This document shows positions 10,112 to 27,433 of a stretch of DNA of 36,559 nt, piece by piece (position 1 is the stretch's first letter; each line of letters begins with the position of its first letter). The position numbers were made by a program, and so were the translations under genes. The stretch comes from Myxococcota bacterium (GTDB taxonomy: Bacteria; Myxococcota; XYA12-FULL-58-9; JALHOP01). The notes beneath the pieces are model-generated. The model searched no databases. It was not told where the DNA came from and saw nothing but the letters and a program-made list of their open reading frames with translations. The stretch lies in NCBI GenBank assembly GCA_041288095.1, contig JBGGMJ010000083.1, positions 1 through 36,559 on the forward strand. The letters run 5' to 3'.

Positions 10112-10189
10112 GGGCGCGAACGTTACGCGGGGACGTGGTCGCCTTCAACATTGTAGGCGCCACGGACTGAGGCGTAAGGTTCGGAACGC

Positions 10190-10912: not shown

Positions 10913-10915
10913 CGC

Positions 10916-11860
10916 TCACGCCTTCTGCTTCTTCTTGAGCGCGTTCCGCAGCGCCGTCATCGCCTTCTCCGCCTTCTTGCGCTCGGGTGATTCCGCGCAG
11001 GCGCGGATGAGCGTGAGCTGCTCGTCGACTTGCTTGATGATTCCCGCGATGTCGGCGCCGTCGAGCTCGTCGATGAAGGCGTTCTCGACCTTGTATTCGC
11101 CATACAGCTTGAGCGCCGCGCCAACATGCGCGCCGGTGGTGTGGCGCTTCAGATATTCGCCCTCTTCCATTTCCGAGTACGCGAGGTAGCAGCCGAGATA
11201 GCCTTCGCACTCGCCGGGGTGATTGGTGCTGGCGGCGAGCCAAGCGAGCGGCTCGGCGCTGCTGGTGGCGTGATACTTCGCTTCCATGTCCCAGATCGAC
11301 TTGGCGTTCGCGAACCATTCTCCTGCTGGTTCGCTATAGACGACGTCGTCCTTGTGCTGGGCGAGAAAGCCCTTGTACGGCTGTTTTTCGCTTCCGTTAC
11401 CGACCGCCGACAATGCATCACGCAGGACCGTGAAGCGGGCCAGAGCCAGCTTGCCGCCGCGCTCCGGGTCCTTGCTTTCGGCTGACGCACGCTTGAGGCA
11501 ATTGTAGAGGTCGGCGCGCTCGACGAAGGTCATGTCCTTCTTGCCGGCGCGCTCGGCGGCCAGCGCCACGTAGGTCTCGTCCGCTGTAGCGGCGTCGAGC
11601 ACGCGAAGTCCGGGACTGAACATCCACCCTTGTTTACCGTCGCTGCTCTCGAGGTGCTCCCAGACACCGTCCTGGCCACCGACATTGACCTTGGCTCCGG
11701 GGGCTTCCAGCTCCTTGAGCACCGTGCAGATGGGCAGGCGCGTCACTTCCGCGGCGTTAGCGGCCGCCGTGGCGCGCAAACGCATGCCGGAGGCGGCGGT
11801 GATGAAGGTCTTGGGGGAGTCGGTGACCACTACCGCGAGCACGACCAGCACGTTGAGCAT
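10916..11860 (-). CDS. Secreted SH3b-domain protein
   Basis: Signal peptide followed by an SH3b-like pattern (GMRLRA...W...DGKQGWMF) and a helical C-terminal region with CEGYLGC. Confidence 0.7.
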   Translation of the reverse strand: MLNVLVVLAVVVTDSPKTFITAASGMRLRATAAANAAEVTRLPICTVLKELEAPGAKVNVGGQDGVWEHLESSDGKQGWMFSPGLRVLDAATADETYVALAAERAGKKDMTFVERADLYNCLKRASAESKDPERGGKLALARFTVLRDALSAVGNGSEKQPYKGFLAQHKDDVVYSEPAGEWFANAKSIWDMEAKYHATSSAEPLAWLAASTNHPGECEGYLGCYLAYSEMEEGEYLKRHTTGAHVGAALKLYGEYKVENAFIDELDGADIAGIIKQVDEQLTLIRACAESPERKKAEKAMTALRNALKKKQKA

Positions 11861-11882
11861 GCGAGCATTGTCTCAAAATCGC

Positions 11883-11897
11883 GTCGCAAATTGCGAC
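11883..11897. promoter_or_regulatory. Perfect palindrome GTCGCAA-A-TTGCGAC, candidate operator
   Basis: 7-bp arms around a 1-nt centre, in the intergenic region between divergent genes. Confidence 0.45.
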
Positions 11898-11997
11898 ACC
11901 CAAAACATCGATCGCCGATTCTCAAGCGTTCCGCGCGGCTTGTGCGCGGGTTCGCGCTGGTACGGAAGCTGCTTCGTGCTCGGCCAGGAGATCACAC

Positions 11998-12486
11998 ATG
12001 CCCGCTTCCAGCATTTCCATCCATGACCGTACCAAGAAGAGCACCATCGTCGACGCGTCGTTGCGCAATCCCATCTCGGCGGCCCTCCGCCGTGGCCTGG
12101 TGACGCACAATCGCGTCCTCGAGCAGCAGGCAAACGATCCCCGCACCACTCGGGACGACGCCGCACAGGCGCGGCGCGACATGCGCGAGGCCGACGTCCT
12201 CATTCGCGCGCTCGAAAACGGCAAGCTCGCGGGAGGCGACCTCTATAGCGTCGATCCCGAGCTCACGCGCCGGAGCATCTGCACGGCGTCGGTGGGCCTT
12301 ACGCCGAGCCACTTTCCCTTCGCGGGCATCGCGCCCGAGTCGGTGGCCCAGGCGGCGGTGCTCGGCGAGCTGCGCGGCGCGCGACAGCTCGATGCGACGA
12401 CGGCCGCGCGCTTGCGGATCGCGGCGCGGACGGCGCGCATGACGCCGCCCGACACCCTCGAGCTCTCGGAGCGGACGTGTCGCTAG
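11998..12486 (+). CDS. Hypothetical protein (ORFan-like)
   Basis: AGGAG RBS 7 nt before the ATG; fills the gap between neighbours; no motif recognised. Confidence 0.6.
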   Translation: MPASSISIHDRTKKSTIVDASLRNPISAALRRGLVTHNRVLEQQANDPRTTRDDAAQARRDMREADVLIRALENGKLAGGDLYSVDPELTRRSICTASVGLTPSHFPFAGIAPESVAQAAVLGELRGARQLDATTAARLRIAARTARMTPPDTLELSERTCR

Positions 12487-13218: not shown

Positions 13219-15477
13219 TTGCATTCATCGGAACAGAGCAGAGGGTCCTGGGGTCGGCACGTCTATCGCGCGCGCCGCGGCATCTTGCTGGCGAGCGCCG
13301 TCGTTCTGGCCCTCGCGGGGGTCGTCTTGGCGCGCGGAGCGCGACTTTCCATCGGCGACTTCGAGAACGAGGAATCGAAGCGGGCCGGGGAGCTCATCGC
13401 TGGTCTCGAAAGACCGGGCGATTCGTCGTTCCTTTTGGTGCTTTCGTCGAAGCAGTGGACCGTCGTCGACGACGCATTCCAGAGCGAGCTGGCCGACACG
13501 GTGAGCGCATTGAAGGCGAGCCCCGAGGTCGTCTCGGTGATTTCGCCGGTCGGCCTGCCCGGCCCGGCGGCACAGCGCTTCTACGCGCAAGATGCGCGAC
13601 ACGCGCTGGTGGCGGTCACCATGCGCGGCGATCTGCCGACCGCGGCGAAGCACTACCCCGAGGTGCGCGCGCTCGTGCCGAGCGGAAGGCTCGACGCGAG
13701 CTTCACCGGCAAGCTCCCGCTCATGAACGACATCGAGGTCGGTCTACGTCACGACCTGCTGCGCGCCGAGGCTATCGCCATCCCGATCTCGCTGCTGCTC
13801 CTGCTCTTCGTGTTTCGCAGCTTGGTCGCCGCGCTCTTGCCGGTGGTGGTCGGGGGTCTGGCGGTGGCGGCGGGCGTCGCGGCCGTCTTCGCGCTGTCGC
13901 ACGTCGCCGACGTGCCCAACTACGCCATCAACATCTGCTCGCTCATCGGCCTCGGGGTCGCGATCGACTACTCGTTGTTCATCGTCAGTCGCTACCGCGA
14001 CGAGCTGGCGCTGGGGCGGTCCGTCGAGGACGCGCTCGCCATCACCCTGCACACCGCTGGGCGCTCGGTGGTGTTTTCGGGGCTGACCGTCGCTACAGGG
14101 CTCACGGGCCTCCTCTTCTTCCACGGCTCGTTCCTCGCCGCCTTGGGGGTCGCTGGAGCCTTGGTCGTGGGCTTCGCCGTGATCGCGGCGCTCACCACCT
14201 TGCCGGCGCTGCTCGGCGTGCTCGGCGCGGCGGTCGATCGCGGTCGTTTCTGGCCGCGGCGCCCCGGCCGCTCGAGCGGACGCTGGCACGCTTTCGCCCT
14301 GACCGTCACGCGGAGACCCTGGCTGTTTTTGGTGCCGGCGATGGCCTTCGTCGGTTTCGCGGCCTGGCCTTATTCGCGACTCGAGGTTGCGACGACGGAC
14401 GTCAGCGTGCTGCCTCCGGACGCGGAGGCGCGCGTCGGCTTCGGTGTGTTGCGCGAGGCCTTCCCGGAGATCGCCGCGACACGCATCAACGTCGTGGTCG
14501 AGTTTCCGTCGTCACCAGCGTTGACCAGCGAGCGTGTCCACGCGCTCTACGCGACCAGCCGCAGGCTCGCCGCGTTACCGCACGTGCGCTCCGTCGAGAG
14601 CATCGTCGACTTGTCGCCGGGCCTCGACGCCACGACCTACGCGATGATGCTGACCCTCCCCGAGGCGATGCAGCCCCGAGACCTGGGCTACGCCTCGCGA
14701 ACCTTCGTCGCCGAGCGCGCGACCCTGATGACGGTGGTGAGCGATGCGCGCCCTTCGAGCCCTGAAGCGCGCGAGCTGGTGCGGTCCTTGCGCGCGGACC
14801 GGGCGGTTGCCGATGGCGGCATTCTCGTCGGTGGGCAAACGGCGCGCGATCTCGACAGCCTGGCGTTGGTCGCGGAGCGCAGTCCGTCCGCGGTGGCGTT
14901 CATCATCGGCATAACCATCGCCATTCTGTTCGTGCTGCTGCGGTCGGTGCTCTTGCCGATCAAGGCAGTGCTCATGAATCTGCTGTCCATCGGCGCGTCG
15001 TTCGGCGCGCTCGTCTGGGTCTTCCAAGAAGGACACGGGCGCGACATTTTGATGTTCGAGCCCGGCTTCATCGATCCGACGTTGCCGGTGATGCTCTTCT
15101 GCCTCGTCTTCGGTTTGTCGATGGACTACGAGGTGCTGCTCTTACACCGCATGCAGGAAGAGTACGAGCGCACCGGCGACAACAGTCAGGCCGTCGCCGA
15201 GGGCCTTTCGCGCACGAGCGGCCTCATCACCAGCGCGGCCGCCATCATGGTGTCCGTTTTCGCGGCCTTCTCGCTGGCGAGAATCTTGGTGGTGAAGGCG
15301 ACCGGCGTCGGCATCGTCGTCGCCATCATCATGGACGCGACCATCGTGCGGCTGCTCATCGTCCCGTCGACGATGGCGCTGCTCGGCGATCTCAACTGGT
15401 GGGCGCCGAAGTTCCTGGCCCGGCGCCGTGCTCCGAACGGCGGCGCTGCGAGCGACTCAAAACGCCTGGCAAGCTGA
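13219..15477 (+). CDS. MMPL-family (RND) lipid transporter, MmpL3/YdfJ-like
   Basis: Two repeats with the IDYSLFIVSRYRDE and MDYEVLLLHRMQEE Asp-Tyr pairs, TAGRSVVFSG, ITSAAAIM, DATIVR, LLGDLNWW. Start codon uncertain. Confidence 0.92.
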   Translation: MHSSEQSRGSWGRHVYRARRGILLASAVVLALAGVVLARGARLSIGDFENEESKRAGELIAGLERPGDSSFLLVLSSKQWTVVDDAFQSELADTVSALKASPEVVSVISPVGLPGPAAQRFYAQDARHALVAVTMRGDLPTAAKHYPEVRALVPSGRLDASFTGKLPLMNDIEVGLRHDLLRAEAIAIPISLLLLLFVFRSLVAALLPVVVGGLAVAAGVAAVFALSHVADVPNYAINICSLIGLGVAIDYSLFIVSRYRDELALGRSVEDALAITLHTAGRSVVFSGLTVATGLTGLLFFHGSFLAALGVAGALVVGFAVIAALTTLPALLGVLGAAVDRGRFWPRRPGRSSGRWHAFALTVTRRPWLFLVPAMAFVGFAAWPYSRLEVATTDVSVLPPDAEARVGFGVLREAFPEIAATRINVVVEFPSSPALTSERVHALYATSRRLAALPHVRSVESIVDLSPGLDATTYAMMLTLPEAMQPRDLGYASRTFVAERATLMTVVSDARPSSPEARELVRSLRADRAVADGGILVGGQTARDLDSLALVAERSPSAVAFIIGITIAILFVLLRSVLLPIKAVLMNLLSIGASFGALVWVFQEGHGRDILMFEPGFIDPTLPVMLFCLVFGLSMDYEVLLLHRMQEEYERTGDNSQAVAEGLSRTSGLITSAAAIMVSVFAAFSLARILVVKATGVGIVVAIIMDATIVRLLIVPSTMALLGDLNWWAPKFLARRRAPNGGAASDSKRLAS

Positions 15478-16876
15478 CCGGGAGCACGAGGCGCCTCGGC
15501 ATACGCGACGCCTGCGCCTTCAAGTGGCCGGCCGTGTCGGACAACGCGCCGACCAGTGCGTCGCGGGCGTGCGGCATGATGGTGCCGATGAGACGGGCGA
15601 TTGGTCCGAGCTCGGCGACCGTGCCCACGGGATTGCGCTCCGCGATAGCGGCGCGACTCCAGTCGACCAAGGCGTGGGTGACGACCGAGCCATATTCCTT
15701 CGCCATGGCGGTCATGCGCAGGTCGCGACCGGCGAGCAGTGCCAACGAAGCTTGTTGGTTCTCGATGGAGGAGCCCCAATAGCGGCGCATGCCGCGACGG
15801 AGGAGCCCCATCTCGGCGCTCGACTCGGCAAAGCAGCGATAAAGCGCCGACGACAAAGCGATACGTGTCCGCTGCGGCGCACGACGGGCACGCGCATAGC
15901 CGCGAAGCGCCGACTTGACGTTGTTGGGTGAGGCGATGAGCGCCTGGCGGAGGGCCAAGGCATCGCGAATCGCCGAGGTCATGCCCGAGACCGACAGGGG
16001 GTGGCAGCAACCCGCGGCGTCGCCCACGAGGCAGACGCGTCCACGCACCGACGTATGCGGCAGGCGCACGTCGTTCGAGGCGAAAAGGGGCTTGCCGCGC
16101 TTCAACGCCTTGCGCATGGCGCCGTGGAGCGGCTCGGGCACGGCGCGCGGCCACGCGGGATCGTCGGCGAGTGTCTTCCAATCGACGGTGTCGGGGACGT
16201 CGACGAGGATGCGGGCCAAGCCGTCGCCGGTCGCGTAGCCGAGGATCGGAGCGTGGCCGTCGACGAAGACATGACCAAGATCGGCGAACGGCAAATCCGC
16301 CGCGCTCACCGTCAGCCCCAGCATGGTCGAGATCTTCTCGTGGCGCTCGCGGATCCCGAGCTCCTCGCGCAGCGCGCCGGCGCGACCGGTGGCGATCACC
16401 AGCATGCTGCCGCGCGCGATCACACGCGTGCCCTTGCGATTGATGCGGACGGACACGTCCTGCGCGTCCTGGCTCACGAGCCCCTCGACCCGGGCGTTGG
16501 ACCAGAAGGTCACGTGCGGCCGGCGCAGAACGTCGTCTTGGAGGGCTTCGACCAGCCGGGCGTGCTCGATCGTCACCCCCGCGCCCAAGGTGTCGTACGA
16601 CAGGAGCATAGCCGGTTCGTCAGGCTCGAGGACCGCGAAACCCTTGACCGGCAGGGCGCCGCACTGCTCGAGGGCGGTCAGAAAGCCGAGATCGGCAAGG
16701 CCGGAGACCCCCACGGGGTGCAGAAGCTCGCCTGAAAACAGCTTCTTACGGTCGACTCCAGAGTCGACGAGGAGCGTGGTCTTGCCAAGACCAGAGAGGG
16801 CCGCGGCCACGGCGCATCCGGCCGGACCACCGCCGACGATTACCGCATCGAAGACGCAGTCTGGCAGCTCTTCCAT
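15392..16876 (-). CDS. Squalene epoxidase (squalene monooxygenase, FAD-dependent)
   Basis: IVGGGPAG, GELLHPVG (cf. eukaryotic GE-LQPGG), GDAAGCCHPLSVSGM. Adjacent to squalene synthase and OSC. Start ATG 16876 inferred. Confidence 0.85.
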   Translation of the reverse strand: MEELPDCVFDAVIVGGGPAGCAVAAALSGLGKTTLLVDSGVDRKKLFSGELLHPVGVSGLADLGFLTALEQCGALPVKGFAVLEPDEPAMLLSYDTLGAGVTIEHARLVEALQDDVLRRPHVTFWSNARVEGLVSQDAQDVSVRINRKGTRVIARGSMLVIATGRAGALREELGIRERHEKISTMLGLTVSAADLPFADLGHVFVDGHAPILGYATGDGLARILVDVPDTVDWKTLADDPAWPRAVPEPLHGAMRKALKRGKPLFASNDVRLPHTSVRGRVCLVGDAAGCCHPLSVSGMTSAIRDALALRQALIASPNNVKSALRGYARARRAPQRTRIALSSALYRCFAESSAEMGLLRRGMRRYWGSSIENQQASLALLAGRDLRMTAMAKEYGSVVTHALVDWSRAAIAERNPVGTVAELGPIARLIGTIMPHARDALVGALSDTAGHLKAQASRMPRRLVLPVSLPGVLSRSQRRRSEHGAGPGTSAPTS

Positions 16877-16889
16877 GGCGTGGTGGTCG

Positions 16890-16896
16890 TATAGTA
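16890..16896. promoter_or_regulatory. Overlapping back-to-back -10-like hexamers (TATAGT on +, TACTAT on -)
   Basis: AT-rich patch in the 41-bp gap between the divergent squalene epoxidase and squalene synthase starts. Confidence 0.4.
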
Positions 16897-16917
16897 AACG
16901 CCCGGCCAAAGTCTACG

Positions 16918-18000
16918 ATGGAATCGACCCGCCCAGAGAACGCCGCCGACGCCCAAGTCTCGGCCGCGACGGCGTTTTGCCGCCGCATGTTGCCGCGGGT
17001 GTCGCGCACCTTCGCGCTGAACATCCCGGTGCTGCCGGCGCCGCTCGATATCGTGGTCACCGTCGCCTACCTCTTGTGCCGCATCGCGGACACCATCGAG
17101 GATGAGAGCGCCGCTCCCGACGAAGAACGCGCCGCGCAGCTCGCCGAGCTCACACGTGTCGCCGAGCTCGGTCCGTCATGGCAGCCAGCGGCTCGCGCGC
17201 TCGCCGCGCGTATCGCCGGCAGTCTGCGGCAGCAAGCACCCGACGCCGAGCGCGATCTCTGCCTCGGTCTGCCGCACGTCGTCGCTTGTTACGCCGCGCA
17301 GCCCGTGTGGTCGCACGGCCACGTCGTGAAGTGCATCCGCGCCATGACCACCGGCATGGCCGAGCTCACCGCCTGCAACGGTGCTCCCCAAGGGTTGGCC
17401 GATCTCGACGAGACCCTGCTCTATTGCCACTACGTCGCCGGCACCGTCGGCGAGATGCTAACCGCGCTGTTCATCGGCTATTCGCCGGCCTGCCATGAGC
17501 ACAAGGAGTTCCTCGAAGCGAGCGCCGGCTCCTTCGGCCGCGCACTGCAGCTCACCAACATCCTGCAGGACGTGCGCGCCGACCTCGAGCGCGGCAGTTG
17601 TTGGCTACCGCGGACCGCCCTGACGCGACACGGGCTGACCCCGAAACAGTTGGTCGAGCCCGAATACCGCGCCCAGGCGCTCGCCTTGCTCGAAGACTTG
17701 ATCGCGGTCGCGCACCGCGAGGCCAAGGCCGCTTTCGAGTACACCCTGCGCATCCCCAAGTCCGAGCCGGGCATCCGCACCTTCTGCCTATGGCCGCTCT
17801 TCAACGCCGTGCTCACGCTGCGCGCGCTCCAAGGCAACCACGAGGCCTTCGGACCCAAGCGGGTCAAGATCCAGCGCAGCATGGTGAAGCTCGTCATGTC
17901 GGTCACCTCGGCGCTCGTCGGTTTCGATCGTGCCCTGCGTCTCACCTTCAAGGGTGCGACGATGGGCTTGTCGCGCGAGGTGTCTCCTGCACTCGACTGA
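16918..18000 (+). CDS. sqs: Squalene synthase (single-enzyme, eukaryote-like type)
   Basis: VSRTFA flap, YLLCRIADTIED, YCHYVAGTVG, LQLTNILQDVRAD, FCLWP, VKIQR. These match SQS motifs rather than CrtB/HpnCD. Confidence 0.9.
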   Translation: MESTRPENAADAQVSAATAFCRRMLPRVSRTFALNIPVLPAPLDIVVTVAYLLCRIADTIEDESAAPDEERAAQLAELTRVAELGPSWQPAARALAARIAGSLRQQAPDAERDLCLGLPHVVACYAAQPVWSHGHVVKCIRAMTTGMAELTACNGAPQGLADLDETLLYCHYVAGTVGEMLTALFIGYSPACHEHKEFLEASAGSFGRALQLTNILQDVRADLERGSCWLPRTALTRHGLTPKQLVEPEYRAQALALLEDLIAVAHREAKAAFEYTLRIPKSEPGIRTFCLWPLFNAVLTLRALQGNHEAFGPKRVKIQRSMVKLVMSVTSALVGFDRALRLTFKGATMGLSREVSPALD

Positions 18001-19966
18001 ACGGCCGCGCGACGTCGACGCCGCCATTGCCCGCGGCCTCGAAGCGATGATGTCGATCACGACGCCGTCGGGATCGTTCCGGGGCGAGTACGCCGGCACG
18101 CTGTTCCTCATCCCCTACTACGTCGGCACCTATCACATCCTCGGCGAGCCTTTGCCCGCCGAGATCCGCGACGGCTTCATTCGTTACTTGTGGAGCCAGC
18201 AGCACGAAGACGGCGGCTTCGGCCTCGACATCGAGTCACCGAGCTACGTGGTCTCGTCGGTCACCAACTACGTGGGCCTGCGGCTCATGGGTGTTCCGGC
18301 GGACGACCCGCGCATGGTCCGCTGTCGCGAGTGGTTTCTGCCGCGTGGCGGCGCCCTCAAGGCGTCGTCGTGGGGCAAGTTCCTGCTCACCATCCTCGGG
18401 GTTTACGACTACGACGGCTTGAACCCGCTGGTTCCCGAGATGTGGCTCCTGCCGCCGAAGCTGCCGCTGCATCCCTCGAACTACTGGGTGCATTGCCGCA
18501 TCGTCTATCTGCCGATGAGCTACTTGTACGCCAAGCGCTTCGTCACGCCGCTGACGTCCGTTCTGGCGGACATTCGCGAAGAGATCTATCCGACGCGCTA
18601 CGCCGACGTCGACTGGAAGAAAGCGCGCGGCGCCGTCGCGACTTCCGACGCCTATGCGCAGTACAGCAAGACGTTGATCTGGTCGTTCAAGCTGCTCGGC
18701 GCGCTCGAGCCCTACCACTCGCCAAAGCTGCGCGCTAAAGCGGTCGAGATGGTGCTCGAGCACATCCGCGTCGAGGACGAGTCGAGCGACTATTCGTGTG
18801 TCGGCCCACTCAACAAGGTGCTCAACGCCATCGTCTGGCACGTCGAGGAAGGGCCACGATGCGAGCGGGTGAGGCGCCACCTCGCGCGCATGCCCGAGTA
18901 CCTCTGGTTCGGACACGACGGCGTCAAGGTGAAGAGCTACTACTCGTCCGAGGTTTGGGATACCGCTTTCGCGGTCCAGGCGATCGACGCGGCGGGCGCT
19001 CTCGGCGCCTACCGCAAACAGCTCACCGGCGCGCAGCGCTTCCTCGAGGCGGAGCAAGTCATCGATGACGTGCCGAACGGCGCCAAGTACTTCCGCAATC
19101 CGCAACGCGGGGGTTGGGGCTTCGGCCACCGCAAGCAAGGCTGGCCGGTCACCGACTGCACCGCCGAGGCCTTGAAGGCGCTCGATATCATGCGCCCGCA
19201 TCGCCTCGAGGCACCACAGGTCCCCGATGATCGCATCGAAGCCGGCATCGACTGGATCCTGGCGATGCAAAACCCCGAGGGCGGCTTCCCAACCTACGAG
19301 CGCACGCGGGGGCCGCGCTGGCTCGAGCTCTTCAATCCCTCGGATTTCTTCGCCGAGATCATGATCGACTACAGCTACGTCGAGTGCACCTCTTCGTGCA
19401 TGCAGGCCCTTGCCCGCTATCGCGCACAGCCGGGTGTGTCGCGCAAGCGCCTCGCCCGCATCGACCAGGCCATGGCGCGCGCCGTTCGCTATCTCCTGCG
19501 CGTCCAGCGCAAAGACGGCTCGTGGGAGGGCTTCTGGGGCGTCTGCTTCACCTACGGCACCTGGTTCGCCATCGAAGGGCTGCGGGCCGCCGGCCTCTCC
19601 ACGAAACACCCGGCGATCCGCGCCGGGGCCCGCTTCTTGCGGTCGAAGCAACGCGAAGACGGTGGCTGGAGCGAATCCATCGAGAGCTCGCGGCAGCGCA
19701 ACTACGTCGAAGCCGAAACCAGCCAGACCGTGCAGACCAGCTGGGGCATCCTCGGCCTCGTCGCCGCCGGTGAAGGCGACACTGCCGCTGTACGCCGCGC
19801 CATGCAGAACCTCTGCGTCAAGCAACGCACGGACGGCGGCTGGGAGAAGGAGCACGTCGCGGGCGTGACCAACCGCAACTGCGCCATCGACTACGTCTCG
19901 TATTGGAGCGTGTTCCCGGTCTGGGCGCTCGGCGCCGGCCGCGCCGCGCAACGAGAGGCCGTGTGA
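17954..19966 (+). CDS. osc: 2,3-oxidosqualene cyclase (divergent active site)
   Basis: VTDCTAE (OSC type, not the SHC DXDD motif), WVHCRIVYLPMSY, WDTAF, YVECTS, WGVCFTYGTWF and several QxxDG(G/S)W/F repeats. Start uncertain (GTG 17930, GTG 17954 or CTG 17987). Confidence 0.93.
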   Translation: MRRWACRARCLLHSTERPRDVDAAIARGLEAMMSITTPSGSFRGEYAGTLFLIPYYVGTYHILGEPLPAEIRDGFIRYLWSQQHEDGGFGLDIESPSYVVSSVTNYVGLRLMGVPADDPRMVRCREWFLPRGGALKASSWGKFLLTILGVYDYDGLNPLVPEMWLLPPKLPLHPSNYWVHCRIVYLPMSYLYAKRFVTPLTSVLADIREEIYPTRYADVDWKKARGAVATSDAYAQYSKTLIWSFKLLGALEPYHSPKLRAKAVEMVLEHIRVEDESSDYSCVGPLNKVLNAIVWHVEEGPRCERVRRHLARMPEYLWFGHDGVKVKSYYSSEVWDTAFAVQAIDAAGALGAYRKQLTGAQRFLEAEQVIDDVPNGAKYFRNPQRGGWGFGHRKQGWPVTDCTAEALKALDIMRPHRLEAPQVPDDRIEAGIDWILAMQNPEGGFPTYERTRGPRWLELFNPSDFFAEIMIDYSYVECTSSCMQALARYRAQPGVSRKRLARIDQAMARAVRYLLRVQRKDGSWEGFWGVCFTYGTWFAIEGLRAAGLSTKHPAIRAGARFLRSKQREDGGWSESIESSRQRNYVEAETSQTVQTSWGILGLVAAGEGDTAAVRRAMQNLCVKQRTDGGWEKEHVAGVTNRNCAIDYVSYWSVFPVWALGAGRAAQREAV

Positions 19967-21081
19967 GCGGCTGGCCCGATACGCGGCTTACGGAGCTGTT
20001 CGCTATCGCGCACCCGATCCTCCAGGCCCCCATGGCCGGCGCCAGCACGCCGGAGATGGCGATCGCCGTAGGCAAGGCTGGTGGCATGGGCTCGCTGGCC
20101 TGCGCCATGCTCGGCGTCGACGAGACGCGCGCGACTCTCCGCAAGCTCGCGGAGGCCGGCGCCGGGTCGCTGAACGTCAACTTCTTCTGTCACGCGCGGC
20201 CGCGGCCCGAGGCCACGGCGCTCAGCGGCTGGGTCGACCGTTTGCGCGAGTACTACGACGAGCTCGGTCTCTCACCCGACGAGGTGCAGCCGGGCGTCGA
20301 ACGCGCGCCGTTCGACGAAGCGTATTGCGAGGTCGTCGAAGAGCTTCGCCCCAAGGTCGTCAGCTTCCACTTCGGCCTACCCGAGCAGAAGCTACTCGAT
20401 CGCTTGCGCAAGGTTGCCTGTACGATCATCGCGTCCGCTACGACGGTCGCCGAAGCGCGCTGGCTCGAGCACCGCGGCTGCGACGCCGTCATCGCCATGG
20501 GCGTCGAGGCGGGCGGCCATCGCGGTAGCTTCCTCACCCGCGACATGAGTCGTCAGGTGGGGACGATGGCGCTGGTACCCCAGGTCGTCGACGCCGTGAA
20601 GGTGCCGGTGATCGCCGCTGGCGGCATCGCCGACGCGCGCGGTATCGTCGCGGCGTTCGCCTTGGGCGCGAGCGCCGTCCAGCTCGGCACCGCCTACTTG
20701 CACACGCCGGAGGCGAAGATCTCGGCGTTTCACCGACACGCCCTGACCGCCGCCGCGGACGACAGCACCGCCGTGACCAACGTGTTCACCGGCCGGCCCG
20801 CGCGTGGCTTCGTCAATCGGCTCGTCGAGGAGGTCGGTCCCTTGAGCGATGTCGTGCCGCCCTTTCCGCTCGCGAGCGCGGCGCTGGCGCCCCTGCGCGC
20901 CGCCGCCGAAGCACGCGGTGAGTCGCACTTCACGAACCTCTGGGCCGGCCAGGCCGCGGGCCTCGGCCGGGCAGAGCCCGCCCAAGCGCTCACGGAGCGC
21001 CTCGCCCGCGAAGCGCTCGCCCACTTTTCCAGCCTCGCGATGTCGCAAAAAACGCCCAATTCAAGCGGAGCTCAGTCGTGA
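19963..21081 (+). CDS. Nitronate monooxygenase-family flavoprotein
   Basis: PILQAPMAG, NVNFFCH, VVSFHFGLP, EAGGHRG, IAAGGIAD, FTGRPARG, LWAGQA. GTGA overlap with the osc stop. Confidence 0.9.
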   Translation: MSGWPDTRLTELFAIAHPILQAPMAGASTPEMAIAVGKAGGMGSLACAMLGVDETRATLRKLAEAGAGSLNVNFFCHARPRPEATALSGWVDRLREYYDELGLSPDEVQPGVERAPFDEAYCEVVEELRPKVVSFHFGLPEQKLLDRLRKVACTIIASATTVAEARWLEHRGCDAVIAMGVEAGGHRGSFLTRDMSRQVGTMALVPQVVDAVKVPVIAAGGIADARGIVAAFALGASAVQLGTAYLHTPEAKISAFHRHALTAAADDSTAVTNVFTGRPARGFVNRLVEEVGPLSDVVPPFPLASAALAPLRAAAEARGESHFTNLWAGQAAGLGRAEPAQALTERLAREALAHFSSLAMSQKTPNSSGAQS

Positions 21082-21518
21082 CCGATGGCCAAGATCCTCG
21101 ACTCGGCCGCTGGCCAATGGCCATCGACGTCCGCGTCGCCTGGGGCGAGATGGACGCCTTCAAGCATCTGAACAACGTCATCTATGTGCGCTACATGGAG
21201 TCCGCGCGCATCGCCTACTTCGAGCGCACCGGCCTACCACTCGATGGTCTCGAGAGAGGGCCAATCCTCGTCAGTCAGACCGTCCACTATCGCAGAGCGG
21301 TGCTCTATCCCGACACCCTGAGCGTCGCGGTCACCACCATCAAGCTCGGCAACACCTCTTTCGTGAACGGCTACCGTATGGTCAACGGCAAGGGCGAATT
21401 GGTCTGCGAAGGCGAATCGACCGGCGTCTGGTTCGACTACAAGCTCGGCGCCAAGGTGCCGCTCGATGATGCGTTCCGCGCCGCCATCTACGGCCTCGAG
21501 GCAAAGGCGAAGGGATAG
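21078..21518 (+). CDS. Acyl-CoA thioesterase (4HBT/YbgC-FadM family)
   Basis: VAWGEMDAFKHLNNVIYVRYMESARI. GTGA overlap with the upstream gene. Confidence 0.9.
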   Translation: MTDGQDPRLGRWPMAIDVRVAWGEMDAFKHLNNVIYVRYMESARIAYFERTGLPLDGLERGPILVSQTVHYRRAVLYPDTLSVAVTTIKLGNTSFVNGYRMVNGKGELVCEGESTGVWFDYKLGAKVPLDDAFRAAIYGLEAKAKG

Positions 21519-23769: not shown

Positions 23770-24327
23770 GTGGACGCAGCCGCAGCACAAGAGGCCGTTC
23801 TGGCCGTTGCCCGCTCTCAGGACCGGGCAGCCTTCGCGGCGTTGTTCGCGCATTTCGCGCCGCGCGTGAAAGGCTATCTCATCAAGCGTGGCGTCGAGAA
23901 CGCTTCAGCGGACGAGATCGTGCAGGACGTCATGCTGACCGTCTGGACCAAGGCGCGCTACTTCGACCCAGCGCGCGGTGGCGTCAGCACCTGGCTCTTT
24001 ACCGTCGCTCGTAACAGCCTCATCGATCGCGTCCGCCGCGAGCGTCGCCCCGAATACGACCCACTCGATCCGGCGCTCGTCGACGAGCCCGCCGGTCCCG
24101 ATGTAAACGTCGAGCGCTCGCGCTTCGCCGCGCTCCTGAAAACCGCGCTCGCCGAGCTCCCCGAGGAACAAGCGCAGGTCGTCGCGCAGGTCTACGGCGA
24201 GGGCAAGTCACTCAGCGACGTCGCCACCGCGACCAACACACCGCTCGGCACGGTCAAGACACGCATGCGTCTCGCGCTCGCGCGTTTGCGAACGCGCATG
24301 CCATCCGATGATGGAAAACCCGGCTAG
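23770..24327 (+). CDS. rpoE: ECF sigma factor, RpoE (ChrR-associated) type
   Basis: DRAAFAALFAHFAPRVK, EIVQDVMLTVW, STWLFTVARN, IDRVRR, LPEEQ, PLGTVKTRMRLA. Start GTG 23770 inferred. Confidence 0.88.
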   Translation: MDAAAAQEAVLAVARSQDRAAFAALFAHFAPRVKGYLIKRGVENASADEIVQDVMLTVWTKARYFDPARGGVSTWLFTVARNSLIDRVRRERRPEYDPLDPALVDEPAGPDVNVERSRFAALLKTALAELPEEQAQVVAQVYGEGKSLSDVATATNTPLGTVKTRMRLALARLRTRMPSDDGKPG

Positions 24328-26692
24328 CGCAGCTTCGCCGGGGCGTACCCCGCTGTCGGCGTTCGTGTCGGCTCTGCTCGTCATCGCGGCGGCACGCGCG
24401 CTGCGTGTCGGCTTGAAGGCCTGGCTCAACGTCGAGGCATTCGCGTTGCCGGCCCTGCTCCGCTTCTGGGTGTGGTACGTGCTCGCCTTCGCGTGCATCG
24501 TCGTCGCGATCGCAGGTCCACCTCGGCTGCTCCTCGAGCCCGCGCAGCGGCTCGCCGATGTGCTGGCGCGTGCGGTCGGCCGTCTTCCGCCGAGCGTGCG
24601 TCGCGCCCTCGCGTTCTGCAACCGCTACGCGCCAATCGTCGTCGTGCTCGTCATCGTCGCCCGTCGCTTCGTCGCGCGCTACGGCGTCGACTACTTCGGC
24701 ACTGACGGGCTGCTCTTCTCCCAGTTCGCCGTCGACAGCCTGCTCGAAGGCAAGAATCCCTATTCGTTGTCGATGGCTGACGCGTTCACGCGTTACGCCG
24801 CCGATCCCGCGTTCGGCACCTATCGCATCGACGGCACGCTCGTGACCGAGCTCTCCTATCCAGCTCTGTCCGTTTTGGCGTTCTTGCCGCAGCGGCTGTT
24901 GGGCGTACCGAATATCGACCTGACCTCCCTGGTGGTGCTCGCCGTCGTCTTTGTCTGGCTCGTCGCGAGGTCGCCGGCGCATCTACGGTGGTTCCCCGTC
25001 GCCATGTTGTGGGCGCAATGGGACCTCGTGAGCTTCAGCGCCGGAGGTGTCTTCGACATCCTCTGGGTGCTGCCGTTGCTCGGAAGCATGGCGTTCTTCG
25101 CGCGCGGCCGCTTGGTGTTCGCCGGCGCCCTCTTCGGCCTCGCCTGCGGCGTCAAACAGACGCCGTGGTTCGTGGCGCCCTTCTTGGTGTTGTGGCTCGC
25201 TCTGGAAAGCAAAGACACGCGCACCTGGGTCATGCGCCTCATGCGCTCGGGTGGCGCGGCGGCCGCGGCTTTCATCGTCGTCAACGCGCCGTTCATGGTG
25301 AGCGACCTGTCCGGCTGGTTGCGCGGCGTGCTGGTGCCGGTGGCCGGCGGCGCCCCGCTCGTGGAGATCGGCACGGGTCCGATCATGGCGAACATCGCCG
25401 GCGTGACTCACCTGCCGAAGGTCTTCTTCTCGCTGCTGATGGCCTGCGCCTGCGCGCTGATCGCGCTCGCCTACACGCTGTGGTTTTCGCGCTTGAAGTG
25501 GCTCGCCTTCACGGCGCCGATGATCGTGTTGTGGTTCAACTATCGGTCGCTCCAGAACTACTACATCTTCCTGCTGCCAGTCGCGTTTTTCGGTCTGCTA
25601 TTGCAGACAGATGACGTCGCCAGCGAGACACGACGTTTCCGCGCCAAGAGGCCGGCGACGGTCTTCGCGATCGCTTGTGTCGTTTGCATCGGCATGCTCG
25701 CTAGCGCCGGAGCCTGGCTCGCACCTCGCACGACGCTCGCCGCCCATGCCGAGATCCGCGGCCTGCGCGATCCCGAAGGTCTGGGCCGGGTTTCGGAGGT
25801 CGATGTCCAGCTGACCAACGACGGCACGACGGCGATCACGCCGACGTTCGGCATCGTACACTCGCGGCATCAAACGCCCGTGCACTGGACGGTTGCGACG
25901 GGACCAGAGATCCTCGCGGCCGGCGCTCAGGCGCTCTACACCCTCGCCGCGCCGATCCCGACGGCGACAGTTCCCTACCGCGCATCGATGCACCTGCGCA
26001 TCTACGACCGTGGCACCGAGCGGCGAACGGCAATCGTCCTGAAGCGCGTGCTCTCTGACCCGCCGCCGCTGATTGCGAACCCGCGGTATCGCCGATGGAG
26101 CGTCAGCCACGACGTCGGCGCGCGCGTGCCCTTCCTCTGGACCGCTCGCTTGCCCGCCCAGTTGCCCAAGGGGGCCGCGAGCTTCGAGGAGACCGAGGAC
26201 GGCATGCGCATCAGCGTCAGCGGCCAAACGTCTCGCGTCGAGCCCGGTCGCCTGGCGGTCGCCGGCATCGAACAGCAGCTGGACGGCGCCATCGAGCGGC
26301 TCCACGTCGACGCCACACCGGGCACTACGATCGACGGAGCCAAGCCCATCGATGGCCAGCCGCTCACGGGTCTCGAGCTGGTCGTTCCCCGCTACTGCCT
26401 GGCCGTGGTCTTCGCCGCACAGTCCGCCATCACGGTCGAGGACGCGCAACTCCGCGACCAGACCTGTCGTATCGTCGCCCTGCCTGCGAGCGCCGGAACG
26501 CGGCTCGCGCTGGACGTCCCTCTTCGCGAGGTCGTCGGCACGGAGTTCTTCGCCCGCTTCGAAGGTCGCCACAAACCGAAGCTACGCTTGTTCGCGGCTA
26601 TCGCGTCGGATGGGCGAGCAGCGGCCGCGTCAGTGACGTTCCATGACGTACACGCAGCTGCGCGTCACCCTTCCGAGGACGCCAGAAACTGA
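24308..26692 (+). CDS. Large integral membrane protein, GT-C-like glycosyltransferase (GT87/DUF2029-like) with an extracytoplasmic C-terminal region
   Basis: About 11-13 hydrophobic segments, GTDG...GKNPY, SYPALS and GLACGVKQTPW motifs, then a beta-rich soluble tail. Overlaps the sigma factor stop. Confidence 0.6.
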   Translation: MMENPASAASPGRTPLSAFVSALLVIAAARALRVGLKAWLNVEAFALPALLRFWVWYVLAFACIVVAIAGPPRLLLEPAQRLADVLARAVGRLPPSVRRALAFCNRYAPIVVVLVIVARRFVARYGVDYFGTDGLLFSQFAVDSLLEGKNPYSLSMADAFTRYAADPAFGTYRIDGTLVTELSYPALSVLAFLPQRLLGVPNIDLTSLVVLAVVFVWLVARSPAHLRWFPVAMLWAQWDLVSFSAGGVFDILWVLPLLGSMAFFARGRLVFAGALFGLACGVKQTPWFVAPFLVLWLALESKDTRTWVMRLMRSGGAAAAAFIVVNAPFMVSDLSGWLRGVLVPVAGGAPLVEIGTGPIMANIAGVTHLPKVFFSLLMACACALIALAYTLWFSRLKWLAFTAPMIVLWFNYRSLQNYYIFLLPVAFFGLLLQTDDVASETRRFRAKRPATVFAIACVVCIGMLASAGAWLAPRTTLAAHAEIRGLRDPEGLGRVSEVDVQLTNDGTTAITPTFGIVHSRHQTPVHWTVATGPEILAAGAQALYTLAAPIPTATVPYRASMHLRIYDRGTERRTAIVLKRVLSDPPPLIANPRYRRWSVSHDVGARVPFLWTARLPAQLPKGAASFEETEDGMRISVSGQTSRVEPGRLAVAGIEQQLDGAIERLHVDATPGTTIDGAKPIDGQPLTGLELVVPRYCLAVVFAAQSAITVEDAQLRDQTCRIVALPASAGTRLALDVPLREVVGTEFFARFEGRHKPKLRLFAAIASDGRAAAASVTFHDVHAAARHPSEDARN

Positions 26693-26707
26693 CGTCCCCG
26701 CCGGGAA

Positions 26708-27373
26708 TCAACCGAGAAAAGGGCGGAGGATTCTCCCCAGCCAAGTCAGCGGTATGGGCGCTGAGTCGGCTATGAAGAGACAAATACAGGTCGCGTCCTT
26801 GGTGATGCGTAGCTCGTGGCGGTGCGCTTCATCGCGGACTTCGACGTCGCCGCGTTGCATCTTGTCTTCGCCGTCTTCGAAGGCTCCGGTCAGGACGATC
26901 GTGAGCTCGGGACCGGGGTGCGTATGCAAGGGCACGACATAGCCAGGTGGAAACTTCACGAGGCGGGCCGGATAGTCGTTCCAGCGCAAGGTCAGCTCGA
27001 CCTGCTTCACGCCCGGGGCGAGGAAGCGCCACTTCAGGCCCTCGGGCATGTACGGCGCGAGCACGCCCGGCATGCCCGCGTCCGCGAGCTGCTTCTGAGC
27101 GGAGGCGACCTTTTCATCGACCTTCGGCTTGTCTTCTTTCGCGGACGGTGAAGCCTCGACCCGTGCCAGCAGGGTCTCGACGTCGACGCCGACGTTCATC
27201 GGCGTGATCGTCTCGATGGTGTGACCGCCGATCGACTCGAGCACCGCGAGCGAGTCGCGGCATTGCTTGCACAACGTGAGGTGCGTCGCGACGAAGAGCG
27301 CTTCGGGCTCCCCACACGTCCCGGCGGCGTAAACCGCTAGCAAATCTTCGGGAAGGTGGTGCGTCGGAGTCAT
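26708..27373 (-). CDS. chrR: ChrR-family anti-sigma factor (zinc anti-sigma domain + cupin)
   Basis: HHLPEDLLAVYAAG...HLTLCKQC, cupin HTHPGPELTIVLTGAFED, H-ELR, CICL. Confidence 0.92.
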   Translation of the reverse strand: MTPTHHLPEDLLAVYAAGTCGEPEALFVATHLTLCKQCRDSLAVLESIGGHTIETITPMNVGVDVETLLARVEASPSAKEDKPKVDEKVASAQKQLADAGMPGVLAPYMPEGLKWRFLAPGVKQVELTLRWNDYPARLVKFPPGYVVPLHTHPGPELTIVLTGAFEDGEDKMQRGDVEVRDEAHRHELRITKDATCICLFIADSAPIPLTWLGRILRPFLG

Positions 27374-27398
27374 GGGCGTGTCGACCCTCGGAGATGAC

Positions 27399-27424: not shown

Positions 27425-27433
27425 ATGCACCCG

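What the first reader, a model, noticed from the sequence alone, without database searches (positions are those of the whole stretch)
19847..19935. Bacterial oxidosqualene cyclase with a natural Phe-to-Thr change in the GVFN motif
Seen: the C-terminal motif reads EHVAGVTNRNCAIDYVSYW, with Thr encoded by ACC at 19868-19870. Known: lanosterol and cycloartenol synthases have GVFN here (human F696, yeast Erg7 F699), an aromatic residue lining the C/D-ring cation site. As I recall, engineered Erg7 F699T makes protosta-13(17),24-dienol instead of lanosterol; this needs checking. ACC differs from TTC at two bases, so a single miscall is unlikely. Inference: this may be a natural protostane or truncated-ring triterpenol synthase.
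Basis: partly seen in the sequence, partly recalled or inferred. Interest (0 to 1): 0.85.

Follow-up and report, generated by a model that had tools for sequence, protein, structure and literature searches.

The report
Bacterial oxidosqualene cyclase with product-switching threonine
An uncultured myxobacterial lineage carries a sterol-type cyclase in which a nearly universal phenylalanine is replaced by threonine, the change shown in plant, yeast and animal enzymes to divert the product from sterol precursors to the rare triterpene protostadienol.

Summary
ORF 17930-19966 (+) is an oxidosqualene cyclase (OSC), and its Thr (ACC, 19868-19870) aligns with human lanosterol synthase F696.

It is not an error. 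Four independent MAG loci encode Thr here, one with a different codon. Thirteen Thr sequences form one clade nested in Phe-bearing Myxococcota OSCs. dN/dS is 0.07-0.27. All other mapped catalytic and cavity residues are kept or conservatively changed.

Zhang et al. 2023 (PMC10246894) report that a natural plant enzyme with Thr here makes only protosta-13(17),24-dienol. F->T converts cycloartenol, lanosterol and parkeol synthases to 91-99.8% protostadienol, yeast ERG7 (Phe699) included, and a cucurbitadienol synthase to 49.5%. They found Thr in no other of 256 OSCs.

My reading is a bacterial protosta-13(17),24-dienol synthase. It sits in a conserved MMPL / squalene epoxidase / squalene synthase / OSC locus with no tailoring genes, so the product is probably an unmodified membrane lipid. 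The product itself is untested. My literature searches found no bacterial protostadienol synthase. A second, independent bacterial Thr lineage exists in Streptomyces.

The parts
17930..19966 (+). Oxidosqualene cyclase gene (678 aa from GTG 17930; alternative start ATG 18047 gives 639 aa)
   Evidence: Pfam SQHop_cyclase_N and _C. TIGR01787 596 bits, above its cutoff of 322.7; TIGR03463 718 bits, below its cutoff of 851. Human LSS 1w6k E 1.1e-171. AF2 model pLDDT 95.5, TM 0.93 to 1w6k. Residues 1-28 have low pLDDT and overlap the squalene synthase gene. Close homologs start at the MMS... position or carry other N-termini, so the start is unresolved.
19850..19906 (+). Motif EHVAGVTNRNCAIDYVSYW (E641-W659), the GVFN region of other OSCs
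   Evidence: Identical in L001-L004.
19868..19870 (+). Thr647 codon ACC, opposite human LSS F696, yeast Erg7 F699 and AoCAS F726
   Evidence: Alignment; codon. Thr in 13 of 13 clade rows.
19148..19168 (+). Catalytic motif VTDCTAE (V407-E413). D409 (19154-19156) is the proton donor, equivalent to human D455. V407 is equivalent to human V453.
19136..19138 (+). Gln403 codon, equivalent to human C449 and plant CAS H477. Clade-specific: Q in 8 of 8 clade members, H in 101 of 113 relatives.
18938..18940 (+). Tyr337 codon, equivalent to human T381 and plant CAS Y410
16918..18000 (+). Squalene synthase-like gene, immediately upstream on the same strand
   Evidence: Pfam SQS_PSY 165 bits. TIGR01559 108 bits, below its cutoff. 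Syntenic in L001, L002 and L004.
15392..16909 (-). Squalene epoxidase-like flavin monooxygenase, divergent from the squalene synthase gene (8 bp between the two start codons as called)
   Evidence: Pfam SE 74 bits and FAD_binding_3. Syntenic in L001, L002 and L004 at 82-94% identity. Intergenic sequence.
13219..15477 (+). MMPL-family RND transporter, the candidate exporter of the triterpenol
   Evidence: Pfam MMPL 271 bits. NCBIfam hits are all below cutoff: MmpL3 326, HpnN 53, BstA 21 bits. Adjacent in L001, L002 and L004. The role is inferred from adjacency only.
19963..21081 (+). NMO/FabK-like FMN oxidoreductase. Its likely GTG start overlaps the OSC stop (GTGA).
   Evidence: Pfam NMO 260 bits. 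Overlap. Present in L001 and L004 but absent from L002, so probably not essential to the pathway.
21078..21518 (+). 4HBT-type thioesterase. Its GTG start overlaps the NMO stop.
   Evidence: Pfam 4HBT_2. Weak YbgC and MenI matches. Syntenic in L001, L002 and L004. No link to the cyclase has been shown.

Best explanation
The gene encodes an active oxidosqualene cyclase of an uncultured Myxococcota lineage.

Shown:
- It has the OSC fold and the catalytic Asp.
- It has a full set of protosteryl-type (chair-boat-chair) cavity residues.
- A single ancestral Phe->Thr change at the F696 position is kept under purifying selection.

Inferred from work on other OSCs:
- The enzyme protonates 2,3-oxidosqualene through D409 and cyclises it to the protosteryl cation.
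- The usual run of hydride and methyl shifts leads to lanosterol or cycloartenol. Here the Thr hydroxyl, helped by a water chain, instead removes a proton at the D ring after the first shifts.
- That releases protosta-13(17),24-dien-3beta-ol as the main product.

Inferred from gene context:
- Squalene synthase and squalene epoxidase next door supply the substrate.
- No tailoring enzymes are nearby, so the triterpenol is probably used unmodified as a membrane lipid and moved outward by the adjacent MMPL transporter.
For: Family and fold. Pfam, NCBIfam and PDB matches. AF2 model pLDDT 95.5, TM 0.93 and rmsd 1.6 A to the human OSC-lanosterol complex 1w6k.

Active site. I mapped it by hand from the alignment.
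- Identical: Y98=Y54, W192=W148, W230=W186, H232=H188, C233=C189, Y237=Y193, W387=W343, F444=F398, V453=V407, D455=D409, C456=C410, Y503=Y456, F521=F474, I524=I477, C533=C486, W581=W536, Y587=Y542, Y704=Y655, Y707=Y658.
- Conservatively changed: I338=L294.
- Different: F696->T647, T381->Y337, C449->Q403.

Thr is real and selected.
- Thr codons occur in four independent MAG loci, ACC three times and ACG once.
- Thirteen Thr rows form one clade with SH-aLRT 100. The clade reaches down to 56% identity.
- It is nested in Phe-bearing Myxococcota OSCs; a node with 96% support joins it to the Corallococcus-type group.
- dN/dS is 0.065-0.27.

Functional precedent (PMC10246894).
- The natural plant AoPDS has Thr at this position and makes only protosta-13(17),24-dienol.
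- AoCAS F726T gives 99.7% protostadienol, ItOSC3 96.7%, AjPS 90.7%, yeast ERG7 99.8% and SgCBQ 49.5%.
- The effect held at only ~34-37% identity to AoPDS and was strongest in CAS and LAS backgrounds. This clade derives from CAS-type (Y/H/I) relatives.

Loss of the cycloartenol signature goes with Thr. The Myxococcota clade is Y/Q/V/T and the Streptomyces pair is C/H/V/T, while the nearest relatives of both are Y/H/I/F. No sequence in three alignments combines Ile453 with Thr. AoPDS also has Val where AoCAS has Ile481.

Context. The order MMPL, SE, SQS, OSC is conserved in L001, L002 and L004. The 36.5-kb window holds no CYP51, sterol methyltransferase or Rieske SdmA.
Against: - No product has been measured for any member of this clade.
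- The F->T effect depends on background: SgCBQ gave only 49.5%, and chair-chair-chair OSCs did not show it.
- Eleven further clade-specific substitutions lie near Y98, H232, T381, F444 and Y704. They could redirect the reaction in ways the single mutants do not predict.
- Q403 and V407 are invariant in the clade. They sit at the late deprotonation site, which should matter little if the reaction stops at the D ring.
- By the usual bacterial rule, V453 indicates lanosterol (PMC4919349).
- Corallococcus coralloides carries SE and OSC yet made no detectable sterol, so gene presence does not prove production.
- The transporter role and the 'unmodified end product' idea rest on adjacency and on one window. 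The rest of these genomes was not searched.
Confidence: 0.6

Rival explanations
1. It is a lanosterol or parkeol synthase. The Q449/V453 pattern decides the product, and the other clade-specific substitutions compensate for Thr at the F696 position.
For: Q and V at the 449 and 453 positions match two of the three lanosterol-synthase signature residues, and V453 tracked lanosterol in every bacterium tested by Wei et al. 2016 (PMC4919349, passages). Q403 and V407 are invariant in the clade. Eleven further clade-specific changes could compensate.
Against: Yeast ERG7 is itself a lanosterol synthase and gave 99.8% protostadienol after F->T. Phe is kept in 113 of 113 relatives outside the clade, so a neutral Thr held in 13 of 13 sequences down to 56% identity is unlikely. 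In AoPDS, replacing the Thr nearly abolished activity.
Confidence: 0.13
2. It is an active cyclase that makes some other protosteryl-derived or aborted product, or a mixture. Examples are protosta-17(20),24-dienol as in Aspergillus AfPDS, a product of a different deprotonation site, or an incompletely cyclised triterpenol.
For: Twelve clade-specific columns, several next to cavity residues. SgCBQ F->T gave a mixed profile. In a chair-chair-chair OSC the same position gave other outcomes.
Against: Four of five chair-boat-chair OSCs tested gave at least 90% of the 13(17) isomer, and the natural Thr enzyme gave it alone. All residues that shape rings A-D are conserved, which argues against early abortion of cyclisation.
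Confidence: 0.22
3. It is an artefact or a dead gene: a base-calling or assembly error, or an OSC decaying after loss of sterol synthesis.
For: All members come from metagenomes, with no cultured isolate. Some myxobacteria with SE and OSC make no sterol.
Against: Thr is present in four independent assemblies with two different codons and in seven further protein clusters from several sources, P0005, P0007-P0010 and P0124 among them. The frame is intact. dN/dS is 0.065-0.27. The catalytic and cavity residues are intact. Synteny with SE and SQS is conserved.
Confidence: 0.03

Closest known systems
AoPDS, protosta-13(17),24-dienol synthase of Alisma orientale (Zhang et al. 2023, PMC10246894)
   Same: It is a natural OSC derived from cycloartenol-synthase stock. 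It has Thr at the conserved Phe position (T727) and Val at the I481/V453 position. The predicted chemistry is the same: Thr acts as the base that quenches the protosteryl-derived cation at the D ring.
   Different: AoPDS is a plant enzyme, more than 79% identical to plant CAS. The window enzyme arose separately inside bacterial OSCs. AoPDS has Val at the Y410 position where this clade keeps Tyr. This clade has Gln at the H477/C449 position. The AoPDS product was measured; this one was not. I did not have the AoPDS sequence to align.
Engineered F->T mutants: yeast ERG7 (Phe699), AoCAS F726T, ItOSC3, AjPS, SgCBQ
   Same: They carry the same substitution at the same aligned position. Four of the five yield 91-99.8% protostadienol.
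   Different: They are single laboratory substitutions in otherwise wild-type enzymes. The window enzyme is a natural lineage with 11 more clade-specific changes and long retention under selection.
Myxobacterial cycloartenol synthases (Stigmatella and Cystobacter type; Y/H/I/F pattern)
   Same: They are the closest relatives by sequence (about 50-54% identity) and by tree. They share the fold, the DCTAE motif and the cavity residues, and the association with squalene epoxidase.
   Different: They have Phe at the 696 position, His at 449 and Ile at 453. The Thr clade has Thr, Gln and Val. Thr-clade members score 718-771 bits on TIGR03463, against 860-888 for three Phe-bearing relatives and 828 for Cystobacter fuscus.
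AfPDS, protosta-17(20)Z,24-dienol synthase of Aspergillus fumigatus (helvolic acid pathway)
   Same: It is an OSC that stops at the protostane skeleton.
   Different: It is a fungal enzyme close to fungal lanosterol synthases. It makes the 17(20) isomer and sits in a cluster with tailoring enzymes (as described in PMC10246894). No tailoring genes are seen here. I did not examine its residue at this position.
Human lanosterol synthase (PDB 1w6k)
   Same: 41% identity, TM 0.93, rmsd 1.6 A. The catalytic Asp and nearly all cavity residues are conserved.
   Different: F696 is Thr, T381 is Tyr and C449 is Gln.

Membership tests
Oxidosqualene cyclase (class II triterpene cyclase, OSC branch) | Two alpha-alpha barrel domains with the squalene/oxidosqualene cyclase fold | tested here: met
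   Pfam SQHop_cyclase_N and _C. TIGR01787 596 bits against a cutoff of 322.7. Model TM 0.93 to 1w6k.
Oxidosqualene cyclase (class II triterpene cyclase, OSC branch) | xxDCTAE catalytic motif (OSC type) rather than the DxDD of squalene-hopene cyclases | tested here: met
   VTDCTAE at residues 407-413, with D409 opposite human D455. That DxDD marks SHCs is recalled.
Oxidosqualene cyclase (class II triterpene cyclase, OSC branch) | Score above the curated cutoff of NCBIfam TIGR03463 (2,3-oxidosqualene cyclase) | tested here: not met
   718 bits against a cutoff of 851. Other clade members score 720-771. Cystobacter fuscus, from a cycloartenol-producing species, also falls below at 828. This reflects divergence and does not exclude the protein from the family.
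Thr-type protosta-13(17),24-dienol synthase (AoPDS kind) | Thr at the position of AoCAS F726, human F696 and Erg7 F699 | tested here: met
   T647 is opposite F696 and is conserved in 13 of 13 clade rows.
Thr-type protosta-13(17),24-dienol synthase (AoPDS kind) | Chair-boat-chair (protosteryl) type active site | tested here: met
   The equivalents of Y98, H232, W387, F444, Y503, W581 and Y704 are all conserved. The clade is nested in sterol-type bacterial OSCs. The roles of these residues are recalled from the human OSC structure paper.
Thr-type protosta-13(17),24-dienol synthase (AoPDS kind) | Product is protosta-13(17),24-dien-3beta-ol | not testable with these tools
   Needs expression followed by GC-MS and NMR.
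Thr-type protosta-13(17),24-dienol synthase (AoPDS kind) | Common descent with AoPDS | tested here: not met
   The Thr label needs 3 changes on a 100-row tree. The Myxococcota clade is separate from the plant-like Thr sequence P0261 and from the Streptomyces pair. The similarity is therefore convergent. AoPDS itself was not in the tree.
Lanosterol synthase | T381 / C or Q449 / V453 signature (human numbering; Wei et al. 2016) | tested here: inconclusive
   The pattern is Y/Q/V, which matches two of the three positions.
Lanosterol synthase | Aromatic Phe at position 696, which stabilises the C-17/C-20 cation through the rearrangements | tested here: not met
   The residue is Thr647.
Cycloartenol synthase | Y381 / H449 / I453 signature; I453 in bacteria | tested here: not met
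   The pattern is Y/Q/V. The nearest Phe-bearing relatives are Y/H/I.

The most novel reading that the evidence does not exclude
An uncultured Myxococcota lineage has swapped sterol-precursor synthesis for a protostane triterpenol, which it uses untailored as a membrane lipid and exports through a dedicated MMPL transporter. The same Phe->Thr switch arose independently in Streptomyces and in plants. Protostanes would then be a recurrent bacterial lipid class that has been overlooked. Bacteria would become possible sources of protostane-type molecular fossils, and of a starting scaffold for fusidane-like compounds.
Probability: 0.4. Interest if true: 0.72.

Novelty: new member of a known kind. 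Interest (0 to 1): 0.62.

Why it matters
- Protostane triterpenes are rare. The papers read here describe them as largely confined to Alisma plants and a few fungi, where they lead to the fusidane antibiotics. Only two natural synthases are described there.
- A bacterial enzyme would extend the range of this chemistry to prokaryotes.
- It would give a ready, prokaryote-expressible protostadienol synthase.
- It would show that one residue switch has been found repeatedly by evolution in three distant lineages.
- Bacterial OSCs are usually read as lanosterol or cycloartenol synthases from residue 453 alone. This clade shows that rule can mislead, which matters when sterol and sterane sources are inferred from metagenomes.
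- The prediction can be tested directly with one expression experiment and one revertant.

Tried and rejected
- **Sequencing error:** rejected. Four independent assemblies use two different Thr codons.
- **Pseudogene or relaxed selection:** rejected. The frame is intact and dN/dS is 0.065-0.27.
- **Misalignment of the Thr:** rejected. The HMMER alignment to 1w6k has no gap here, and three MAFFT alignments agree.
- **The listing of cluster members:** Source names for P0004-P0010 were therefore not obtained that way.
- **Off-by-one column:** my column for human T381 was off by one and read N382. I corrected it.
- **Incomplete motif scan:** the regex caught only the window and L001-L005. One search read the rest. 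Of the 15 loci, 4 have Thr (L001-L004) and 10 have Phe (L005, L006-L014). L015 could not be read because of an internal stop in my extraction.
- **Bad rows in the first tree:** the L005 row was badly extracted (13 internal stops) and made a long branch at the root. I dropped L005 and L015 for the second tree. Both trees used the quick LG+G4 search with SH-aLRT only. No bootstrap or AU test was run, and no squalene-hopene cyclase outgroup was included.
- **Subsampling in the trees:** the first tree used every third of the 113 non-clade hits, 38 of 113. The second tree used representatives of 600-800 aa only.
- **Proton-relay idea:** I wanted to measure whether the clade-specific D654 and N650 lie near T647 as a possible proton relay. 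The model coordinates are not exposed to scripts, so this stayed untested.
- **TIGR03463 cutoff:** I tested whether scoring below it is specific to the Thr clade. It is not, because Cystobacter fuscus also falls below.
- **Atlas look-ups:** these gave only coarse taxonomic leads for P0141 and P0261.
- **Triterpenoid cyclase survey (PMC12324236):** term search only. It had no passage on this clade, on F696 or on protostadienol synthases.
Full report
**1. The observation**

The window reads GGC GTG ACC AAC at 19862-19873. ORF 17930-19966 on the + strand translates to a 678-residue protein, P0001, that ends ...EKEHVAGVTNRNCAIDYVSYWSVFPVWALGAGRAAQREAV. Thr647 is ACC at 19868-19870, and the motif E641-W659 spans 19850-19906. 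ACC is two substitutions away from either Phe codon.

**2. What the gene is**

- Pfam finds both squalene-hopene-cyclase domains.
- NCBIfam places the protein in squalene/oxidosqualene cyclases: TIGR01787 scores 596 bits against a cutoff of 322.7. Its best match is the 2,3-oxidosqualene cyclase model TIGR03463 at 718 bits, below that model's cutoff of 851.
- The best solved relative is human lanosterol synthase, 1w6k, at E 1.1e-171. Squalene-hopene cyclases follow far behind at E 1e-46.
- An AlphaFold2 model built on a 98-sequence alignment has mean pLDDT 95.5 and pTM 0.94. It superposes on the human OSC-lanosterol complex with TM 0.93 and rmsd 1.6 A over 660 columns.
- The OSC-type catalytic motif VTDCTAE is present, with D409 opposite human D455.

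I read the alignment position by position.
- Identical: the equivalents of Y98, W192, W230, H232, C233, Y237, W387, F444, V453, D455, C456, Y503, F521, I524, C533, W581, Y587, Y704 and Y707.
- Conservatively changed: I338 is Leu.
- Different: F696 is Thr647, T381 is Tyr337 and C449 is Gln403.

The functional roles of these residues are recalled from the human OSC structure paper. In that alignment the Thr sits exactly opposite F696, with no gap in the region.

**3. Is the Thr real, and is it selected?**

*Near relatives.* Of the query plus the 120 best relatives from a 5.8-billion-protein search, 113 have Phe and 8 have Thr at this column. The 8 are the query and its 7 nearest relatives, P0004-P0010, at 56-88% identity.

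*Targeted search.* A search seeded only from the C-terminal 54 residues found 10 candidates and 6 hits in the whole database. All 6 were clade members, and one, P0124, was new and also reads GVTN.

*Genomic loci.* A scan of one genome per species returned 15 loci.
- L001, L002 and L004 are 87-91% identical to the query and L003 is 70% identical. All four come from uncultured MAGs labelled Myxococcota, Myxococcaceae or, for L001, Bdellovibrionales.
- All four encode EHVAGVTNRNCAIDYVSYW, with ACC in three and ACG in L002.
- Ten other loci have Phe, and one could not be read.

*Trees.* On a 62-row tree the 13 Thr rows form one clade with SH-aLRT 100. On a cleaner 100-row tree the result is the same. 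The clade lies several nodes inside Phe-bearing bacterial OSCs, and a node with 96% support joins it to the Corallococcus-type group. So Phe is ancestral and Thr arose once in this lineage.

*Selection.* Pairwise dN/dS between the window gene and the four loci is 0.065-0.27. The gene is therefore not an error and not a decaying copy.

*Broad survey.* A word-index-free HMMER scan found 616 representatives at E <= 1e-30. Among the best 150, the column is Phe in 104, a gap in 24, Thr in 2 and other residues in 20.

**4. What else marks the clade**

Twelve alignment columns separate the 8 clade members from the 113 others. They are residues 50, 53, 57, 187, 336, 399, 403, 587, 647, 650, 654 and 656.
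- Several flank cavity residues: Y54 (human Y98), H188 (H232), Y337 (T381), F398 (F444) and Y655 (Y704).
- The clade reads Y/Q/V at human positions 381/449/453. Its nearest Phe-bearing relatives read Y/H/I, the cycloartenol-synthase pattern.
- Wei et al. 2016 (PMC4919349, passages) state that T381/C,Q449/V453 marks lanosterol synthases and Y381/H449/I453 marks cycloartenol synthases. In the bacteria they tested, V453 tracked lanosterol and I453 tracked cycloartenol.

**5. What the Thr is expected to do**

I could not read the primary paper. Zhang et al. 2023 (Sci Adv, PMC10246894; abstract, sections 4, 9, 10 and 26, and passages) settle the point and go further.
- They characterised AoPDS, a natural plant OSC from Alisma orientale. 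It has Thr727 where the sister cycloartenol synthase AoCAS has Phe726, and it makes only protosta-13(17),24-dienol.
- AoCAS F726T gave 99.7% of that product.
- The same F->T change gave 96.7% in ItOSC3 and 90.7% in the sea-cucumber parkeol synthase AjPS. In yeast ERG7 it gave 99.8%, a value credited to Wu et al. 2010, Org Lett 12:500, whose title names phenylalanine 699. In the cucurbitadienol synthase SgCBQ it gave 49.5%.
- The effect did not depend on overall identity: AjPS and ERG7 are only about 37% and 34% identical to AoPDS.
- Their QM/MM work assigns Phe a cation-pi and CH-pi role that promotes the C17-to-C20 hydride shift. It assigns Thr, with a water chain, the role of a base that removes a D-ring proton early.
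- Replacing the Thr in AoPDS nearly abolished activity, although Ser kept some.
- They note that chair-chair-chair OSCs do not show the uniform effect.
- They state that Thr at this position was 'unique (only found in AoPDS)' among the 256 OSCs they aligned.

**6. Best explanation**

The window enzyme is a chair-boat-chair type OSC of cycloartenol-synthase ancestry. It carries the substitution that natural and engineered precedents tie to protosta-13(17),24-dienol, and it has kept that substitution under purifying selection across a clade. I therefore predict a bacterial protosta-13(17),24-dien-3beta-ol synthase, with confidence 0.6.

A supporting detail is that the cycloartenol signature was lost along with Phe in each bacterial Thr lineage. 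No sequence in three alignments pairs Ile453 with Thr, and AoPDS also has Val where AoCAS has Ile481.

**7. Evidence against**

- No product has been measured.
- The SgCBQ result shows that the effect depends on background.
- Eleven further clade-specific changes could redirect the reaction.
- Q403 and V407 are invariant within the clade. That is unexpected if the late deprotonation site no longer matters.

The rivals are therefore a lanosterol or parkeol synthase that tolerates Thr (0.13), a different or mixed protosteryl-derived product (0.22), and an artefact or dead gene (0.03).

**8. Genomic setting**

Pfam and NCBIfam scans of 31 ORFs chosen by third-position GC give the following map.

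| Coordinates | Strand | Gene |
|---|---|---|
| 3-8871 | + | Menaquinone operon |
| 13219-15477 | + | MMPL-family RND transporter |
| 15392-16909 | - | Squalene epoxidase |
| 16918-18000 | + | Squalene synthase |
| 17930-19966 | + | OSC |
| 19963-21081 | + | NMO/FabK-like oxidoreductase; its GTG start overlaps the OSC stop |
| 21078-21518 | + | 4HBT thioesterase |
| downstream | | PurU, a fumarylacetoacetase and an ECF sigma factor |

- The order MMPL, SE, SQS, OSC, thioesterase, PurU, FAH is conserved in L001, L002 and L004. The NMO gene is missing from L002.
- The window holds no CYP51, sterol methyltransferase or Rieske SdmA.
- The only sterol- or hopanoid-flavoured extra is an HpnA/SdmB-like SDR 9 kb downstream, with both matches below cutoff.
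- I infer that the cyclisation product is used without tailoring as a membrane lipid and may be exported by the MMPL protein. This step rests on adjacency only, and the rest of these genomes was not searched.

**9. Comparison with what is known, and novelty**

Functionally the closest known thing is AoPDS. Phylogenetically the closest are myxobacterial cycloartenol-type OSCs.

The Thr label needs three changes on the 100-row tree:
- the Myxococcota clade;
- a Streptomyces pair, P0141 from S. sparsus and P0274, which read G[VI]TFRT with C/H/V and are nested among Phe-bearing Streptomyces OSCs;
- a plant-like fragment, P0261, which reads GVTNQNC with Y/Q/V and resembles Streptophyta cycloartenol synthases.

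The resemblance to AoPDS is therefore convergent and not by descent.

Literature searches found no bacterial enzyme or bacterial protostane.
- 'protostadienol' with 'bacteria': 20 papers, all on fungi or plants.
- 'protosta', Myxococcota and OSC terms.
- 'protostane' with 'bacterial' and 'oxidosqualene cyclase', from 2022 on: 5 papers.
- A 2025 survey of triterpenoid cyclase diversity had no passage on it in a term search.

These searches cover only the open-access library and bioRxiv. I file the finding as a new member of a known kind: the switch and its chemistry are known, and its natural occurrence in bacteria appears to be new.

**10. Verdict**

Interest is 0.62. This is a clear, cheaply testable prediction of a rare triterpene skeleton in bacteria, with convergent evolution of a one-residue switch. 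It is not a new enzyme class.

Noticed in passing
P0141 and P0274 (proteins; not in the window): There is a second, independent bacterial Thr lineage. Two Streptomyces OSC homologs, S. sparsus and Streptomyces sp. NPDC055239, are 70% identical to each other. They read G[VI]TFRT at this motif and C/H/V at positions 381/449/453. Their nearest Streptomyces relatives are Y/H/I with Phe. One source is a named species, which may make this lineage easier to test experimentally.
   Followed up: partly
P0261 (protein; not in the window): This 502-aa plant-like OSC fragment has GVTNQNC and Y/Q/V, the same four-residue pattern as the Myxococcota clade. It resembles Streptophyta cycloartenol synthases. 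It may be another natural plant Thr-type cyclase, distinct from AoPDS, which has Val at the Y410 position.
   Followed up: partly
window 19148-19150 (V407) with 19868-19870 (T647): Thr at the 696 position never co-occurs with Ile at the 453 position in three alignments. Each bacterial Thr lineage has Val while its nearest Phe-bearing relatives have Ile, and AoPDS against AoCAS shows the same change. The single F->T mutant is enough in the laboratory, so the reason for the recurrent Ile->Val is unexplained.
   Followed up: partly
window 19877-19897 (N650, D654, V656): Three more clade-specific substitutions sit within nine residues of the Thr, one of them an Asp next to Y655 (human Y704). They might form part of a proton relay for the Thr.
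   Followed up: no
window 19963-21518: An NMO/FabK-like FMN oxidoreductase and a 4HBT thioesterase follow the OSC with 4-bp GTGA start/stop overlaps, which suggests co-translation. The NMO gene is absent from the otherwise syntenic L002, and the thioesterase weakly resembles MenI. No link to the triterpenoid has been shown.
   Followed up: partly
window 29066-30148 (+): This SDR is most similar to the hopanoid-associated HpnA (250 bits, cutoff 368) and more weakly to the bacterial sterol C-4 demethylation protein SdmB (154 bits, cutoff 600). It lies 9 kb from the cyclase, and no SdmA partner is in the window.
   Followed up: no
window 3-8871 (+): A near-complete classical menaquinone operon: isochorismate synthase (cut at the window edge), MenD, MenB, MenA, MenC, MenE, a polyprenyl synthase and MenG/UbiE. 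A pyridoxamine-phosphate oxidase follows at 8887-9522.
   Followed up: no
window 17930-18047: The OSC start is ambiguous. The GTG at 17930 overlaps the squalene synthase gene by 71 bases, and residues 1-28 have low model confidence. The ATG at 18047 matches the start of homolog P0005, but other clade members have longer N-termini that share an RGL motif with the region upstream of 18047.
   Followed up: partly
L001 (contig CAZAER010000003.1): The record title calls this MAG Bdellovibrionales. Yet the locus is syntenic with, and about 90% identical in protein to, loci titled Myxococcota, and its OSC nests in Myxococcota sequences. The taxonomic label looks doubtful.
   Followed up: no
window 9542-12486 and 24308-28390: Several conserved ORFs have no Pfam or NCBIfam match: 10190-10912, 10916-11860 (-), 11857-12486, a 794-aa ORF after an ECF sigma factor at 24308-26692, and 27434-28390 (-). 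The first four are syntenic in L001, L002 and L004; 27434-28390 was not among the queries.
   Followed up: no
window 15392-16917: As called, the squalene epoxidase and squalene synthase genes start only 8 bp apart on opposite strands. The MMPL and epoxidase genes overlap convergently by 86 bp. The start codons or the promoter layout need checking.
   Followed up: no
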